Of a stretch of 64,000 bases of DNA, positions 50,419 through 55,609 are shown piece after piece. Made by a program: the position numbers and the translations under genes. The notes under the pieces are model-generated. The model worked only from the letters and a program-made list of their open reading frames with translations, made no database searches and was not told where the DNA came from. Numbering within the stretch: position 1 is the first letter of the stretch; each line of letters begins with the position of its first letter. Source of the DNA: Escherichia phage UP19; sequence record OX638288; one strand, written 5' to 3'.

Positions 50419-50718
50419 ATGAAAACTTATCAAGAATTTATTACAGAAGCCAAAGCTCCTAAAGCATTCCAAATAGGTGTCCAAGGCACCTTAGACCAAG
50501 AATATGTTGATGCTATTGTAGCAAGCCTCGGTAAACAGGGCGTACAAGTGGATTTGGTTGATTTTACTAAAGGTAATACTTTTAATATTGTTACATCTAA
50601 AGGCTCTTTAGCTAAAGTTAAAAAGGCCTTTGGTGTAGCCCAAGCATACGAAATCGACCACTCTGAATTAGAAAATAAAGGTCGCCAGAATACAATTAAA
50701 GGTTCTGGTTCTTTCTAA
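50419..50718 (+). CDS. Internal-protein-like gene (MKTYQEFITE|AK)
   Basis: Capsid-targeting leader; 99 aa against 100 for T4 IPII. Confidence 0.6.
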   Translation: MKTYQEFITEAKAPKAFQIGVQGTLDQEYVDAIVASLGKQGVQVDLVDFTKGNTFNIVTSKGSLAKVKKAFGVAQAYEIDHSELENKGRQNTIKGSGSF

Positions 50719-50878
50719 TAAAGGCAAGCCGACCCTCTCCTCATGAACGTCGCATCCTCTGAGTGATGGACCTTTCCCTACCTGTAATAAGGTCGAGCCC
50801 AAGTGCGGTAAAGGGTTTACATACGGATACATGGATGAATTATGTGCCAAGGAACGGCCCCACAACTAAGAGACCACT

Positions 50879-51406
50879 ATGAAATTTTTAACTCCCATTT
50901 ATCTAACCTTAATGCACGCCTTCGCTGAACGCGCCATTGAACGTTTAGACTCAGACCAATATACCTGGTACGAACCCACTTCAAGAATGCAAGAGTTTGG
51001 TACTCTTCGACTTGACGGCGGGCGTCAAACAGGTAAAACAAGTGCCCTTGCCCAGTTCGCAGCTGATTGGGTTTCCAAGGGTAATGATGTGATTGTTATG
51101 TCAAGTTCTTCGCATCGCTCACGAGAAATCTGTAATATAATAAAAAGGGTTTCTAAGGCCCAACCACACCTTCAAGTAGAAGGTCCTGGGTTTGTTGTAT
51201 ATGATACCATGCGTTCATTTTTAGACGAAGATAACTTCCATAAGTATCGTGGTCTATCAGTTACTCGATTATTGATTATTATCGAAGAGCCAATGCGCCT
51301 TCCATCGATGGATAAGTTCTATGAAGCTTACCAGGTAATGATTAACAAATTTATGTGCCAGGGTTCTAAACCTCTGCCACTGTTCTTTGTGATAGGAATG
51401 CAATGA
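50879..51406 (+). CDS. Small P-loop NTPase-like protein
   Basis: Walker A-like GGRQTGKTS and Walker B-like LLIIIEE. Confidence 0.45.
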   Translation: MKFLTPIYLTLMHAFAERAIERLDSDQYTWYEPTSRMQEFGTLRLDGGRQTGKTSALAQFAADWVSKGNDVIVMSSSSHRSREICNIIKRVSKAQPHLQVEGPGFVVYDTMRSFLDEDNFHKYRGLSVTRLLIIIEEPMRLPSMDKFYEAYQVMINKFMCQGSKPLPLFFVIGMQ

Positions 51407-51699
51407 TGACTGATGAAGAGCTTTTTGAGTTCTGCTATTTCTCACGTAAGGTTCGAAGAGAGGACCTTACTGCAAATTTCGAATATGCTTATTTCTATCC
51501 ATTAGAATATGTATTCATGACAGGGCCCTTTAAGGGCTCTCGTTTTAGATGTCATGCCCCAAGCATCCGATTAATGAAACAGGTTCCTTACTTCACTCTC
51601 GAGTTCATCTCAGGCCCGTGTAAGGGTATTATTACTCGCAGTCTCTTGACGTATGACCAAGAGATTCATATGATTTCTGACTGGAAAAAATATGTCTAA
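51403..51699 (+). CDS. Hypothetical protein
   Basis: 98-aa ORF overlapping the upstream stop. Confidence 0.45.
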   Translation: MMTDEELFEFCYFSRKVRREDLTANFEYAYFYPLEYVFMTGPFKGSRFRCHAPSIRLMKQVPYFTLEFISGPCKGIITRSLLTYDQEIHMISDWKKYV

Positions 51700-51910
51700 A
51701 TTGACAATTGAAGGCTCTGATGCAGTCCTGAAAAGATTTGTTGAATGGTTTAATGGGCCGGGTGAACAAGACTTTCTGGAAGTCTGGAACGGTGGCCAGT
51801 GGAATGGTAAAGAAATAGTTTACCCGACTACTTATATCTCTGTATGTGGTGGGATCGACGGCCTTCGTTTGGTAGAATATGATATTGCAACAGGTGAGGA
51901 AGTGAAATGA
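51692..51910 (+). CDS. Hypothetical protein
   Basis: 72-aa ORF. Confidence 0.4.
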   Translation: MSKLTIEGSDAVLKRFVEWFNGPGEQDFLEVWNGGQWNGKEIVYPTTYISVCGGIDGLRLVEYDIATGEEVK

Positions 51911-52185
51911 TTGAAGATATCAAAGGTTACAAGCCACATACCGACGATAAAATCGGTAAAGTGAATGCCATTAAAGATGCTGAAGTCCGATTAGGCTTAA
52001 TCTTTAAAGCATTAGAAGAAGAATATGTTGAAGCCTTTACATGCTCAGGTGTTGATAAAATGAGTGATGAAGAATTCAACCTCACCCATGAACGCCTCGC
52101 CCAGATTCGTACGGCAATCGAACGCTTGAAAGAAGCTTCTATGTGGGCGTGTCGTTCCGTTTTCCAGCCCGAGGAAAAATACTAA
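51907..52185 (+). CDS. Hypothetical protein
   Basis: 92-aa ORF. Confidence 0.4.
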   Translation: MIEDIKGYKPHTDDKIGKVNAIKDAEVRLGLIFKALEEEYVEAFTCSGVDKMSDEEFNLTHERLAQIRTAIERLKEASMWACRSVFQPEEKY

Positions 52186-52190
52186 AAGCA

Positions 52191-52219
52191 GTTTACATCT
52201 CCTGTAGACGTGGTACTAT
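52191..52219 (+). promoter_or_regulatory. Early promoter module; spacer CTCCTGTAG pairs with the regB SD CTACAGGAG
   Basis: GTTTAC 52191-52196; TACTATAGACCTATCAA. Confidence 0.65.
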
Positions 52220-52247
52220 AGACCTATCAACTACAGGAGATTACAAA

Positions 52248-52706
52248 ATGTCAGAAATTAATTCAGAAGTATTCATCCGCCGCAACAAATTACGTCGACA
52301 GTTCGAAACCGAATTTCGTGAACTTAACGCGTCCATCAAAAAAGCCGCCATTAAGAGTGGTGTCCCAGCTTTCTTTATTAAGTACTCTAATCACTTGTTG
52401 GACCGTGCTATCCAACGTGAAATTGACGAAAAATATGTTTTCTCTTTGTTCAAGAAGCTCCACAATCATGTTAAAGAAATCCATGAATTTTTAATCCAGG
52501 AGCCTCTTCCTGACGTAGAATCTGAAATTGTCCCGGGTAAAGTGTATCGACCACTGCGTCTCGAGATTACCGATAAAACCTTATGGTTAGGTATGACCGT
52601 AGATCGTAAACATCCTGATAAAGGATATTCATTAAAATGCCGTATGGCATTTGTTAACTCTAAACGTTTAGAAGGTAAAACCAGCACTAAAGTAATCTAT
52701 CTTTAA
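52248..52706 (+). CDS. regB: RegB sequence-specific endoribonuclease
   Basis: ..EVFIRRNKLRR.FE.EFR.. and ..HLLDRAIQREIDE.YVF..LF.. resemble T4 RegB; about 152 aa. Confidence 0.85.
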   Translation: MSEINSEVFIRRNKLRRQFETEFRELNASIKKAAIKSGVPAFFIKYSNHLLDRAIQREIDEKYVFSLFKKLHNHVKEIHEFLIQEPLPDVESEIVPGKVYRPLRLEITDKTLWLGMTVDRKHPDKGYSLKCRMAFVNSKRLEGKTSTKVIYL

Positions 52707-52718
52707 TAATGAGGTCTC

Positions 52719-53258
52719 ATGAAAAAAGTATTAGCCACTTTACTATTGACAGTTAGTATGTCTGCCTATAGCGTAGAGCCTACTTTCAGTAATGAACAAC
52801 TCGATAATTTACATTATGCGTATGCTTTCGGTGAACAATACCAAAAGTCGGGAAAGTTCAAAGAAAACCCTAATCAAAAAGGATTAGGATATATAATGGC
52901 CGGATTATTATGGCAGGAATCATCTGCTGGAATTAATCAAGGTTTAAATAAAGATAAGCACCATGCTTATGGCATGTTCCAAAATTACTTGCCTACGTTA
53001 AGAAGTCGTGTTCAACAGGTAGGTTGGAAGATGTCAGACAAAGAAATAATTCGTATGGTCCAAAAACGACAGAACAGTGCCTCTTGGGCCTACATTGAAC
53101 TGTCTTATTGGATTGATGTTCACAAAGGTGACCTGAGAAAAGCGATTGCTTCTTATAATGCGGGCTGGAATGTCAAAGCAGGCAGTAAATATGCTTCCGA
53201 AGTTCTAGAAAAGGCCAATTACCTAAAATCTAAAAAGATGTTTGAGGCGGTATATTAA
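52719..53258 (+). CDS. Secreted lytic transglycosylase-like protein
   Basis: Signal peptide; SLT motifs ES (WQESSAG), GMFQ and YNAG. Confidence 0.6.
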   Translation: MKKVLATLLLTVSMSAYSVEPTFSNEQLDNLHYAYAFGEQYQKSGKFKENPNQKGLGYIMAGLLWQESSAGINQGLNKDKHHAYGMFQNYLPTLRSRVQQVGWKMSDKEIIRMVQKRQNSASWAYIELSYWIDVHKGDLRKAIASYNAGWNVKAGSKYASEVLEKANYLKSKKMFEAVY

Positions 53259-53615
53259 ATGATTAAACAGATGACTATAGCGCTTATGTTTATTGCTCCG
53301 GGAGTATTAGCATCACAGGTTGATGATACAAATAATTCAATTGTCGAGTATGCCACCCGTACAGCAAAAGATTATTGTCATCCGAGTAATACTGAATGTG
53401 TTATTGAATTCAGTTCAAAAATAACAGCTGCTTTTAAAGATGGACAGAACGACGTCGAGCATCGCCGAATGAAAGAGAAAACTCTTTCTAAAAGATACGA
53501 GCAACGTCTAAACGTTACTGAATGTGTTCCATCTGATAAAAAGTACAAAGAAATGTGCGCGTCTATGGTAGACAGACTCGTTGACTCTTACAACCGAGGG
53601 CTAAACTCTAAATGA
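53259..53615 (+). CDS. Secreted small protein
   Basis: Signal peptide MIKQMTIALMFIAPGVLASQ; 118 aa. Confidence 0.45.
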   Translation: MIKQMTIALMFIAPGVLASQVDDTNNSIVEYATRTAKDYCHPSNTECVIEFSSKITAAFKDGQNDVEHRRMKEKTLSKRYEQRLNVTECVPSDKKYKEMCASMVDRLVDSYNRGLNSK

Positions 53616-54079
53616 TTATTGATTATATTAAGGGCGATATCGTCGCCCTGTTTCTTCAAGGCAATAATGTTGCACACGGGTGTAACTGCTTTCACACAAT
53701 GGGTTCAGGTGTAGCAGGTCAATTGGCTAAGGCGTATCCACCTATTCTTGCTATCGATAAAACCACTTATTTAGGTGATATAGCAAAACTTGGAACATAT
53801 ACCCAAGCCACAGGTAATAATGGACAAATTTGCTATAATTTATACACCCAATACGAACCAGGCCCTAATCTTGATTACGGTGCTTTAGTAAACTGTATGA
53901 TAGAATTAAACCATACTTCAAAAGGTCTTTTGTTTAAACCGAGAATTTATATTCCTCGCATTGGCTGTGGTATTGCTGGTGGTGATTGGGACAAGGTTTA
54001 TCAATTGATTAATTTGTTTACTCCTGATATTAATTTAGTGGTGGTAGATTATGAAAGCTCATTATCCGCATCCGTTTGA
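53612..54079 (+). CDS. Macro-domain protein (ADP-ribose binding or processing)
   Basis: GDIV..(N/H)..HTMGSGVAGQLAKAYP and IPRIGCGIAGG match macro-domain signature positions. Confidence 0.6.
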   Translation: MIIDYIKGDIVALFLQGNNVAHGCNCFHTMGSGVAGQLAKAYPPILAIDKTTYLGDIAKLGTYTQATGNNGQICYNLYTQYEPGPNLDYGALVNCMIELNHTSKGLLFKPRIYIPRIGCGIAGGDWDKVYQLINLFTPDINLVVVDYESSLSASV

Positions 54080-54263
54080 CCCTAAAAACAAAGCGGAAAT
54101 TATTCGCCGCTGGACCGAAACCCGAGTAACTAAATGCCCTATAAAAAGTCATCACAATACTGATAAATGGTATATAGGTGAATATGTTGAATATACTTTT
54201 ATAGATAAAAATAAACGTAAACAGTATGTAGAAGAATACTGCTTAAAGGTGCAATGGTTATGA
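54051..54263 (+). CDS. Hypothetical basic protein
   Basis: 70-aa ORF; start overlaps the end of the macro gene. Confidence 0.35.
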   Translation: MKAHYPHPFDPKNKAEIIRRWTETRVTKCPIKSHHNTDKWYIGEYVEYTFIDKNKRKQYVEEYCLKVQWL

Positions 54264-54466
54264 GCCAAACCCGAATTCTTAAAACGGCTAAATGTGAAAA
54301 ATGTGAATGGCCGGTAATCGCAGCTTTATGCAACGATGAAATGGAATGTGAATTTGATTACTGGTGGTACTGTTCTAATAAAGGATGTTCTAATCATAAG
54401 GGTGAAGGTTTTCATTCCGGTTATTGCGAACATCCTAAATTTGTGCGATATGGTGAACCTAAATGA
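54254..54466 (+). CDS. Cys-rich, probable zinc-ribbon protein
   Basis: CEKCEW..C..C..C..C.. pattern. Confidence 0.45.
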   Translation: MVMSQTRILKTAKCEKCEWPVIAALCNDEMECEFDYWWYCSNKGCSNHKGEGFHSGYCEHPKFVRYGEPK

Positions 54467-54648
54467 GTTTAAGTATTAGTCAGAAAAGTAGATTGTTTGA
54501 GCTTATCCATGAGCTTTTGGATGAGCATACAGAAGCAAACGCTTTTTACGATGAATATGGCCCGCTATCTCCCGAACAGCAAGAAGAATTTGCTGATCGG
54601 TTTGATGAGAAAGAAAACGAATTAATAGCTTATGTGAATACGCTTTAA
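54463..54648 (+). CDS. Hypothetical acidic protein
   Basis: 61-aa ORF. Confidence 0.4.
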   Translation: MSLSISQKSRLFELIHELLDEHTEANAFYDEYGPLSPEQQEEFADRFDEKENELIAYVNTL

Positions 54649-54657
54649 GAAGGTAAT

Positions 54658-55230
54658 ATGGCTCAACTTTATTTTCATTATGCGGCAATGAACTCAGGTA
54701 AGACCGCTTCATTGCTAACGGCAGCTCATAACTACAAAGAACGCGGTATGAGCGTGCTCCTTTTAAAGCCTGCGATAGACAATAGAGAATCAAGCCATAC
54801 CATTTCGTCTCGTATAGGGATTAGTCAAGAGGCTAATGCGGTGACTCCGGATATGGACCTATACGAGTTCTATCGTTGGGCTGAATCTCAAAAAGATATC
54901 CACTGTGTGTTTGTGGATGAAGCACAATTCTTAGAACCTGCACAGATAAAACAACTGGCAAAGATAGTAGACAATTATAATGTTCCAGTTATGTGTTATG
55001 GGCTAAGAACTGATTTTCAGGGTAAACTGTTTCCTGGTTCTGCTGAATTACTCGCTACGGCAGATAAACTCGTTGAGTACAAAGGTGTGTGCCATTGCGG
55101 CCGTAAAGCTACTATGACTGCTAGGGTCCAAGATGGTGTCGCAATTAAGGACGGAGCCCAAGTTTCTATAGGTGGCAACGATTCTTACGTGTCATTGTGC
55201 AGGAAGCACTGGATAGAAATAACGAGTTGA
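54658..55230 (+). CDS. tk: Thymidine kinase
   Basis: P-loop AAMNSGKTASLL; CHCGRKAT..LC zinc site; 190 aa. Confidence 0.9.
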   Translation: MAQLYFHYAAMNSGKTASLLTAAHNYKERGMSVLLLKPAIDNRESSHTISSRIGISQEANAVTPDMDLYEFYRWAESQKDIHCVFVDEAQFLEPAQIKQLAKIVDNYNVPVMCYGLRTDFQGKLFPGSAELLATADKLVEYKGVCHCGRKATMTARVQDGVAIKDGAQVSIGGNDSYVSLCRKHWIEITS

Positions 55231-55237
55231 GGGTACT

Positions 55238-55516
55238 ATGGACCTAAATTCAAAGATTTTAATTCTAGCGTTCGCTGTGGCCATCTCTTATATTGTTCTT
55301 TCGCCCATCATGGATGATGCGGCTTACAAAAGAGAGATAGAAGTTGTAGCAGCGACGTATAATGCTAATAATAAAGAATGCCCTAATAAAAATGGAATGG
55401 ATTTAATTAAAGCACATTATATGCTTTCCATTACCTCGCCTATACAGAGGAATTGGGTTGAATATAATTTTAACGACGTGTTCTATTCTTATTGTCGTAA
55501 GCTTAAAAAGCTATAA
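55238..55516 (+). CDS. Small membrane protein
   Basis: N-terminal transmembrane helix; 92 aa. Confidence 0.45.
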   Translation: MDLNSKILILAFAVAISYIVLSPIMDDAAYKREIEVVAATYNANNKECPNKNGMDLIKAHYMLSITSPIQRNWVEYNFNDVFYSYCRKLKKL

Positions 55517-55519
55517 ATA
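55512..55519 (+). promoter_or_regulatory. Late promoter TATAAATA upstream of rI
   Basis: TATAAATA about 90 bp before the rI ATG. Confidence 0.4.
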
Positions 55520-55609
55520 GTAATACTAACCGTAGAGCTTTAGCTTTTGGTAATCGCTATCGGTTAAGGCCGAAAGGCAAATTCGTATAAAATAACAAAG
55601 GACTTTTGT

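What the first reader, a model, noticed from the sequence alone, without database searches (positions are those of the whole stretch)
53612..54079. Phage macro-domain protein in the early region
The 155-aa ORF has macro-domain signature blocks (GDIV..HTMGSGVAGQLAKAYP and IPRIGCGIAGG). Macro domains bind or hydrolyse ADP-ribose adducts. T4-like phages ADP-ribosylate host proteins (Alt, ModA, ModB), and some bacterial defence toxins ADP-ribosylate DNA or RNA. A phage macro domain could reverse host-imposed ADP-ribosylation or tune the phage's own.
Basis: partly seen in the sequence, partly recalled or inferred. Interest (0 to 1): 0.6.

Follow-up and report, generated by a model that had tools for sequence, protein, structure and literature searches.

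The report
T-even phage Tk.4/AdfM macrodomain orthologue

Summary

A November 2025 preprint (HIDEN-SEQ) showed that T4 tk.4 is the single gene needed to resist DarTG2 and renamed it adfM.

The analysis here adds four points:
- The catalytic position is an invariant Gln (Q80), as in Streptomyces SCO6735 (Q85), not the Lys of DarG or TARG1.
- The "AdfM" of PhiKZ is a DarG-type, Lys-bearing macrodomain only 21% identical, so it is a separate lineage.
- Bacterial relatives stand alone and are not next to DarT.
- Residues 44-75 form a swapped variable cassette among T-even phages.

No biochemistry exists for Tk.4 itself. Verdict: observation confirmed, interpretation supported, already known, low-to-moderate interest.

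The parts
53612..54079 (+). tk.4 / adfM orthologue CDS: 155-aa single-domain macrodomain protein. The stop codon is included.
53675..53740 (+). Residues 22-43, HGCNCFHTMGSGVAGQLAKAYP: strand beta2 and the first glycine-rich (phosphate-binding) loop. H22 and N25 occupy the positions of SCO6735 H24 and N27 and of PhiKZ AdfM N23.
   Evidence: H22, G23, N25 and G33 are invariant in 52 homologues, and G31 is nearly invariant (>=90%). Numbering was checked against SCO6735. The SCO6735 mutants H24Y and N27S and the PhiKZ mutant N23A are described in PMC9411070 and PMC13309987.
53741..53836 (+). Residues 44-75: variable cassette (helix 44-50, loop, and beta-hairpin 63-67 / 73-). Dhakavirus phages carry two alleles here, and the cassette is exchanged between T-even genera.
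   Evidence: Window against JS98/dhaeg: 14 of 36 identical in this segment, against 40-41 of 43 (aa 1-43) and 25 of 25 (aa 76-100) in the flanks. Tequatrovirus a48 carries the JS98-type cassette. megablast splits the JS98 match into two pieces.
53849..53851 (+). Codon CAA = Gln80. This is the catalytic-position residue, equivalent to SCO6735 Gln85, DarG Lys80 and TARG1 Lys84.
   Evidence: Q80 is invariant in 52 homologues and kept in 76 of 80 bacterial relatives. The profile alignment puts NlYtQ over TARG1 LITK (K84) and BT1257 MIGQ. MAFFT puts it over DarG and PhiKZ FPTK. The Q85/K80/K84 equivalence and the loss of activity in Q85A/E come from PMC9411070.
53951..53983 (+). Residues 114-124, IPRIGCGIAGG: second glycine-rich loop of the ADP-ribose cleft. 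A122 occupies the position of TARG1 Asp125, so the TARG1 Lys/Asp dyad is absent.
   Evidence: P115, G118 and G120 are invariant; I117, A122, G123 and G124 are nearly invariant. Alignment to TARG1 GCGLDRLQW.

Best explanation
The ORF encodes the Dhakavirus orthologue of T4 Tk.4 (AdfM), a stand-alone macrodomain ADP-ribosyl hydrolase made before or during phage DNA replication.

Proposed mechanism. When the phage infects a cell carrying the DarTG2 toxin-antitoxin defence, the released DarT2 toxin ADP-ribosylates thymidines in single-stranded phage DNA and blocks replication. The phage macrodomain binds the ADP-ribose moiety in the cleft formed by its two glycine-rich loops (aa 28-36 and 115-124). 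It hydrolyses the thymine-N3-ribose bond and restores unmodified DNA. It probably uses the SCO6735-type chemistry, in which Gln80 with His22 and Asn25 positions the substrate and an activated water, rather than the lysine chemistry of DarG and TARG1.

What is shown here: gene, fold, orthology, conservation of these residues, and purifying selection. What is shown elsewhere, for the 54%-identical T4 orthologue only and in a preprint: the genetic requirement against DarTG2. What is inferred: the enzymatic step, the substrate, and the transfer of function to this allele.
For: - Macrodomain by sequence and by fold.
- Positional orthology with T4 tk.4: 54% identity over all 155 aa, E=3e-64, and the same vs/tk.4/tk.3/tk.2/tk order.
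- T4 tk.4 was the single significant hit in the DarTG2 screen, and its deletion sensitises T4 to DarTG2.
- The only PADLOC model hit is DarG (E=9e-6 for the window protein, 1.3e-9 for T4 Tk.4).
- The closest solved relatives are the ALC1/TARG1-like class (BT1257, TARG1, SCO6735, DarG). The tested members of this class (SCO6735, DarG, TARG1) all remove thymine-linked ADP-ribose from DNA (PMC9411070).
- SCO6735 has Gln at the catalytic position, rescues E. coli from DarT, and loses all activity as Q85A/E. The window protein has the matching Q80, H22 and N25, invariant across 52 homologues.
- dN/dS is 0.08-0.38.
- An independent phage macrodomain, PhiKZ gp104, has been shown in vitro to remove DarT2-made ADP-ribose from DNA, so the strategy is established in phages.
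Against: - No enzymatic assay exists for any Tk.4 protein. The T4 evidence is genetic and comes from a preprint.
- This allele shares only 11 of 36 positions with T4 in residues 44-75 and 19 of 55 in the C-terminal third, so specificity could differ.
- The protein lacks the DarG catalytic lysine and the DarT-binding domain: NCBIfam DarG scores 20.6 bits against a cut-off of 250.
- It also lacks the longer 'mobile loop' and the K34/K89 residues of SCO6735, so the mechanism cannot simply be copied from either enzyme.
Confidence: 0.75

Rival explanations
1. The protein neutralises DarT2 mainly by binding and inhibiting the toxin (or by shielding its product), not by catalysis. It would then be an antitoxin mimic by interaction.
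For: Catalytically dead SCO6735 Q85A, DarG K80A and TARG1 K84A still inhibit DarT in vitro, with SCO6735 the strongest (PMC9411070). ICP1 AdfB is proposed to act through direct interaction (abstract of PMC11481870). A fast-varying surface cassette at aa 44-75 would fit a protein-protein arms race.
Against: Every residue needed for catalysis in SCO6735-type enzymes is invariant in phage and bacterial relatives, which argues that the active site is used. There is no DarT-binding C-terminal domain. A catalytic eraser works whichever DarT2 variant the host carries.
Confidence: 0.1
2. The main substrate is RNA or protein rather than DNA. The enzyme would erase uracil-linked ADP-ribose on RNA, or Glu/Asp-linked ADP-ribose on proteins, placed by other host ADP-ribosyltransferase defences. 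Protection from DarTG2 would be one facet of a broad eraser.
For: TARG1, DarG and SCO6735 all reverse U-ADPr on ssRNA (PMC13036486). SCO6735 also de-modifies PARP1 E988Q. The family is very widespread in phages (2731 records) and in bacteria that have no adjacent DarT, which suggests a function wider than DarTG2.
Against: The only phenotype known for the orthologue is against DarTG2. No bacterial uracil- or Glu/Asp-directed anti-phage ADP-ribosyltransferase was identified or tested here.
Confidence: 0.08
3. It is what the RefSeq annotation says: an ADP-ribose-1''-phosphate phosphatase (Poa1p/A1pp-like), or a processor of small soluble ADP-ribose derivatives such as RNA-repair by-products, O-acetyl-ADP-ribose or TIR-derived immune signals.
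Against: The annotation is a domain-name transfer, not an assay. The sequence match to Poa1p covers only the N-terminal part and is weaker than the matches to BT1257, TARG1 and SCO6735. It does not explain the DarTG2 phenotype of T4 delta-tk.4.
Confidence: 0.05
4. It tunes the phage's own ADP-ribosylation by removing marks placed by Alt, ModA or ModB on host proteins, or ModB RNAylation.
For: T-even phages encode these transferases (general knowledge; alt appears in the T4 gene table quoted).
Against: From established knowledge, not tested here: Alt, ModA and ModB modify arginine, and macrodomains of this class are not known to cleave arginine-ADP-ribose. The family is common in phages and bacteria that lack Alt/Mod homologues. 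The HIDEN-SEQ passages read link tk.4 only to DarTG2.
Confidence: 0.02

Closest known systems
T4 Tk.4 = AdfM (anti-DarT factor Macrodomain; bioRxiv 10.1101/2025.11.20.689424)
   Same: Same length (155 aa), 54% identity end to end, same genomic slot between vs and tk.3, same 4-nt start/stop overlap with vs, and the same H-G-C-N, Y-T-Q and P-R-I-G-x-G motifs.
   Different: Residues 44-75 and the C-terminal third are strongly diverged (11 of 36 and 19 of 55 identical). The C-terminus is 4 aa longer and overlaps tk.3 by 29 nt instead of 4. No phenotype has been measured for this allele.
Streptomyces coelicolor SCO6735 and Bacteroides BT1257 (Gln-type subclass of ALC1/TARG1-like macrodomains; PDB 5E3B, 2FG1/2AFC)
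   Different: Only 24-29% identity. The phage protein lacks the 5-6-residue longer 'mobile loop' that defines that subclass and lacks K34 (S32 here) and K89. The context is viral, not chromosomal.
DarG antitoxin macrodomain of DarTG2 (PDB 5M3I, 5M31/5M3E, 7OMU)
   Different: DarG uses Lys80 where this protein has Gln80. DarG has a C-terminal DarT-binding domain and is encoded next to darT. The NCBIfam DarG equivalog scores 20.6 bits against a cut-off of 250.
PhiKZ gp104, also named AdfM (Cell Rep 2026, PMC13309987)
   Same: A phage-encoded stand-alone macrodomain that counters DarTG2. It has been shown in vitro to remove DarT2-made ADP-ribose from DNA. The conserved Asn (N23) matches N25 here.
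   Different: Only 21% identity (pairwise E=6e-4). gp104 is DarG-type, with FPTK containing the catalytic Lys, and matches DarG at E=9e-25. Its only solved-structure matches at E<=0.01 were three DarG entries. It is imported into the phage nucleus. The shared name therefore covers two lineages.
Human TARG1/OARD1 (PDB 4J5R, 2LGR)
   Different: The TARG1 catalytic dyad Lys84/Asp125 is replaced by Gln80/Ala122.

Membership tests
Macro domain (Pfam PF01661) | Profile score above Pfam's gathering cut-off over most of the domain | tested here: met
   29.3 bits against 22, profile positions 2-117 of 118.
Macro domain (Pfam PF01661) | Three-layer alpha/beta/alpha macro fold with two glycine-rich loops lining the ADP-ribose cleft | tested here: met
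ALC1/TARG1-like macrodomain class (TARG1, DarG, SCO6735) | Closest relatives by sequence profile and by structure are members of this class, not MacroD, PARG or macroH2A types | tested here: met
SCO6735/BT1257 subclass | Gln at the position of the DarG/TARG1 catalytic Lys | tested here: met
   Q80 is invariant and aligned to BT1257 MIGQ. SCO6735 Q85 numbering verified.
SCO6735/BT1257 subclass | Mobile loop about 5 residues longer than in DarG and TARG1 | tested here: not met
   The HMMER alignment needs a 6-residue insertion in BT1257 relative to the Tk.4 family profile, immediately after the Q motif. The definition is from PMC9411070.
DarG antitoxin (NCBIfam NF048014 equivalog) | Score above the curated cut-off; two-domain protein with a C-terminal DarT-binding domain | tested here: not met
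   20.6 bits against a cut-off of 250. The protein is 155 aa against a 338-position model, and only the macro part aligns.
DarG antitoxin | Catalytic Lys80 | tested here: not met
   Gln80 aligns to FPTK of T. aquaticus and M. tuberculosis DarG.
DarG antitoxin | Encoded next to a darT toxin gene | tested here: not met
   The neighbours here are vs and tk.3. Among 105 same-strand neighbours of 80 bacterial relatives, no family recurs in more than 6 loci, and DarT is not among the families found in two or more loci.
T4 Tk.4/AdfM orthologous group | Full-length similarity and conserved position between vs and tk.3/tk | tested here: met
   54% identity over 155 of 155 aa, E=3e-64. Gene order in JS10, JS98, Bp7 and T4. 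PHROG 335 E=7.7e-66.
T4 Tk.4/AdfM orthologous group | Protects the phage from DarTG2 | not testable with these tools
   Known only for T4. It needs a knock-out of this phage or a complementation test.
Poa1p-like ADP-ribose-1''-phosphate phosphatase | Phosphatase activity on Appr-1''-p | not testable with these tools

The most novel reading that the evidence does not exclude
The T-even Tk.4 family may not be a captured DarG antitoxin. It may be a separate, ancient, stand-alone Gln-type macrodomain lineage, with hundreds of non-DarT-linked bacterial relatives, that uses water-activation chemistry and acts as a broad eraser of base-linked ADP-ribose: thymine on DNA, uracil on RNA, and possibly protein esters. 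On this reading, the exchangeable cassette at aa 44-75 would be a specificity or evasion module shaped by an arms race with host toxins or with host inhibitors of the eraser.
Probability: 0.2. Interest if true: 0.5.

Novelty: already known. Interest (0 to 1): 0.25.

Why it matters
Macrodomain erasers are one of the ways phages defeat ADP-ribosylating toxin-antitoxin defences, and they affect which hosts therapeutic T-even phages can infect. For this gene the main question, what a T-even macrodomain is for, was answered genetically for T4 in 2025, so the finding mainly confirms that Dhakavirus phages carry the same counter-defence.

The residual value is mechanistic:
- Tk.4 proteins have Gln where DarG and TARG1 have the catalytic Lys.
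- They lack the loop that defines the only characterised Gln-type enzyme (SCO6735).
- They have never been assayed in vitro.
- They carry a recombining variable cassette.

These points give concrete mutants and chimeras to test. They also caution that the two published 'AdfM' proteins (T4 Tk.4 and PhiKZ gp104) are not the same family.

Tried and rejected
- Sigma-70 promoter and terminator consensus scan of 50500-55600: promoter-like sites were no more frequent than in shuffles (13 against 14.3), so it says nothing about early expression.
- MAFFT alignment of eight reference macrodomains (A2) misplaced the Q-loop of BT1257 and SCO6735 because of their longer loop. I relied instead on the HMMER profile alignment, on numbering checks and on the structure-based equivalence published in PMC9411070.
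- A literature search for 'AdfM' alone was swamped by unrelated strings (88,411 papers). The relevant papers came from the searches.
- DarG-capture hypothesis: I looked for DarT next to bacterial relatives (80 loci, 105 same-strand neighbours scanned with Pfam and PADLOC) and found no recurrent DarT. Only the top 25 families are listed, so a single DarT neighbour cannot be excluded.
- Classification as a DarG equivalog was rejected. The 'phosphatase' annotation was considered and ranked low.
- The MotA-box-like match inside the gene is kept in JS98 and a48, but in T4 it has one mismatch (CGCTTTA) and does not match the pattern. It is left as a passing note.
- Three paper look-ups failed because a search term was too short.

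Full report
**Observation.** The ORF at 53612-54079 (+) exists.
- Its start overlaps the stop of the upstream gene by 4 nt (ATGA, 53612-53615).
- Its last 29 nt overlap the next ORF, 54051-54263.
- Pfam Macro (PF01661) is matched above the gathering cut-off: 29.3 against 22 bits, E=9.3e-7, covering almost the whole profile.
- PHROG 335 is matched at E=7.7e-66.
- Single-sequence search of solved structures finds BT1257, SCO6735, Poa1p, DarG and TARG1.

**Identity of the window and of the gene.** The 2.3 kb around the ORF is 98.5% identical to Escherichia phage JS10 and 91-98% identical to other Dhakavirus phages (Straboviridae, Tevenvirinae).
- In JS10 the gene is annotated tk.4, 'phosphatase; contains A1pp phosphatase motif'. 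It lies in the order regB, vs.1, vs, tk.4, tk.3, orf, tk.2, tk.
- T4 has the same order.
- The window protein is 54% identical to T4 Tk.4 over all 155 residues, E=3e-64.
- The A1pp/macro match of tk.4 orthologues was already noted in 2006 (PMC1524935).
- tblastn finds matches in 2731 phage records, 2365 of them covering at least 80% of the protein.
- Nei-Gojobori dN/dS against JS10, PSD9, Bp7, JS98, dhaeg and T4 is 0.08-0.38, so the gene is under purifying selection.

**Fold.** An AlphaFold2 model built on 52 homologues has mean pLDDT 93.8 and pTM 0.88. Only the last five residues are disordered.
- A profile of the family finds BT1257 at 7.5e-21, TARG1 at 2.7e-18, SCO6735 at 2.5e-17 and DarG at 5e-11 / 3e-10.
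- The protein is therefore a member of the ALC1/TARG1-like macrodomain class.

**What is known about the orthologue.** The HIDEN-SEQ preprint (bioRxiv 10.1101/2025.11.20.689424) screened a T4 transposon library on E. coli expressing DarTG2.
- It found one significant hit, tk.4.
- A clean deletion made T4 sensitive to DarTG2.
- The authors noted structural similarity to M. tuberculosis DarG and named the gene adfM. They proposed, without an assay, that it removes ADP-ribose from DNA.

Independently, PhiKZ gp104, also named AdfM, was shown in vitro to remove DarT2-made ADP-ribose from DNA and to protect chimalliviruses from DarTG2 (PMC13309987).

- The family alignment has H22, G23, N25, G33, N76, Y78, T79, Q80, P115, G118, G120 and W126 invariant.
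- The profile alignment places NLYTQ over TARG1 LITK (K84) and over BT1257 MIGQ. It places GCGIAGG over TARG1 GCGLDRL (D125).
- MAFFT places the same Q80 over FPTK of T. aquaticus and M. tuberculosis DarG and of PhiKZ gp104.
- The protein therefore has neither residue of the TARG1 Lys/Asp dyad, nor the DarG lysine.
- This is the situation described for SCO6735. There Gln85 occupies the lysine position, Q85A and Q85E abolish activity on both DNA and protein substrates, and a water-activation mechanism was proposed. SCO6735 hydrolyses thymine-ADPr faster than DarG or TARG1 and rescues cells from DarT (PMC9411070).
- Numbering was verified: SCO6735 H24, V25, N27, K34, Q85 correspond to window H22, G23, N25, S32, Q80.
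- The phage protein differs from SCO6735 and BT1257 in lacking the 5-6-residue longer 'mobile loop' and K89.
- The catalytic and binding residues are therefore present, but of the Gln type. The refutation criterion is not met.

**Relation to DarG and to the other AdfM.**
- The only PADLOC hit is DarG, and it is weak (23.4 bits). The NCBIfam DarG equivalog scores 20.6 bits against a cut-off of 250. The protein has no DarT-binding domain.
- PhiKZ gp104 matches DarG at E=9e-25 and carries the lysine. It is only 21% identical to the window protein. The name AdfM therefore covers two different macrodomain lineages.
- A scan of one genome per bacterial species found at least 476 loci encoding relatives at 32-43% identity, in many phyla and often on megabase contigs.
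- In the best 80 loci, Q80, H22 and N25 are each kept in 76.
- Among 105 same-strand adjacent ORFs, no Pfam or PADLOC family recurs in more than six loci, and DarT is not among the recurrent ones. ADP-ribosylglycohydrolase, NADAR and PRPP-synthetase-like neighbours occur twice each.
- The family is therefore mostly stand-alone in bacteria, like SCO6735, rather than an antitoxin of a DarTG operon.

**Variation within the gene.** Dhakavirus phages carry two alleles.
- The window, JS10, PSD9 and Bp7 share a 155-aa form. JS98 and dhaeg have a 159-aa form.
- The two forms differ mainly in residues 44-75 (14 of 36 identical), while residues 1-43 and 76-100 are 93-100% identical.
- Tequatrovirus a48 combines a T4-like N-terminus with the JS98-type cassette and C-terminus.
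- The gene is therefore mosaic across genera. What the cassette does is unknown.

**Mechanism proposed.** The protein is an early-expressed eraser. It binds ADP-ribose attached by DarT2 to thymidine in single-stranded phage DNA and hydrolyses the base-ribose bond by SCO6735-like Gln/His/Asn-assisted water attack, which restores replication.
- Shown here: gene, fold, orthology, residues, selection.
- Shown elsewhere for T4 only: the DarTG2 phenotype.
- Inferred: the chemistry, the substrate, and the transfer of function to this allele.
- Rivals: inhibition of DarT2 by binding (dead SCO6735, DarG and TARG1 mutants still inhibit DarT); a broader or different substrate such as U-ADPr RNA or protein esters; Appr-1''-p or small-molecule processing (annotation; Poa1p fold match); and reversal of the phage's own Alt/Mod marks, which is the least likely.

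**Verdict.** The feature is an annotated orthologue of a gene whose anti-defence role has been reported, so it is already known. The new points are the Gln-type active site without the SCO6735 loop, the non-equivalence of the two AdfM proteins, the stand-alone bacterial relatives, and the variable cassette. These refine the picture rather than change it. Interest 0.25.

Noticed in passing
window 53631-53649 (+), 20 nt inside the tk.4 ORF: A GC-rich hairpin, AGGGCGAT-ATC-GTCGCCCT (8 pairs), followed by GTTTCTT. It uses the GC-rich codons GGC, GTC and GCC, although the window is only 39.8% G+C. It is almost identical in T4 (AAGGGCGATATTGTCGCCCTTTTCG), even though synonymous sites between the two genes are saturated (dS 1.75). 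It is also kept in Krischvirus PHB13 with a changed loop and a strengthened pair (GGGCGAT-CTC-ATCGCCC). It is absent in Karamvirus KMB19 and Jiaodavirus KPV15. The RNA fold z-score for the 80-nt context is -2.0. It could be a processing, attenuation or mRNA-stability element at the vs/tk.4 junction. Function unknown.
   Followed up: partly
window 53741-53836 (tk.4 residues 44-75); loci L003, L005, L090: A variable cassette inside an otherwise near-identical gene. There are two alleles within Dhakavirus (14 of 36 identical in this segment), and Tequatrovirus a48 carries the JS98-type cassette, which indicates recombination between genera.
   Followed up: partly
window 53881-53906 (+), inside tk.4: TGCTTTAGTAAACTGTATGATAGAAT matches a MotA-box plus -10 pattern (TGCTTNA N11-13 TANNNT), which is T4 middle-promoter-like. 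It would read into tk.3-tk. The window has 12 such matches against 3.5 expected from shuffles. The site is kept in JS98 and a48. In T4 it has one mismatch in the box (CGCTTTA) and does not match the pattern.
   Followed up: partly
window 53259-53615 (+), gene vs: This is the valyl-tRNA synthetase modifier gene immediately upstream, translationally overlapped with tk.4 (ATGA). The HIDEN-SEQ preprint reports T4 vs as the gene most strongly depleted in minimal medium.
   Followed up: no
window 54051-54263 (+), tk.3: tk.3 overlaps the 3' end of tk.4 by 29 nt here, against 4 nt in T4. The extra tk.4 tail (residues 151-155) is predicted to be disordered (pLDDT < 50).
   Followed up: no
proteins P0118, P0083, P0105, P0113, P0114; BFVD hits of 186-302 aa: Some homologues are longer. 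P0118 (247 aa) is listed with Nudix (PF00293) and PF22327, and several proteins of about 245 aa have an unexplained extension. A Marseillevirus hit is named an SNF2-subfamily protein. A Macro-Nudix fusion would fit release of ADP-ribose followed by its degradation.
   Followed up: no
loci L007-L086 (bacterial genomes): At least 476 bacterial loci encode Gln-type relatives at 32-43% identity (Rhodobacterales, Hyphomicrobiaceae, Verrucomicrobia, Desulfobacterales, Planctomycetota, Bacteroidota). They have no conserved neighbour. There are occasional NADAR, ADP-ribosylglycohydrolase, PRPP-synthetase-like, NAD synthase and Exo_endo_phos neighbours.
   Followed up: partly
T4 tk.4 (L002 4923-5390): Laboratory T4 sublines differ by a missense change in tk.4, Ser36Gly, in the first glycine-rich loop region (PMC8573959). 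The window protein has Gly at the corresponding position 36 (GVAGQ).
   Followed up: no
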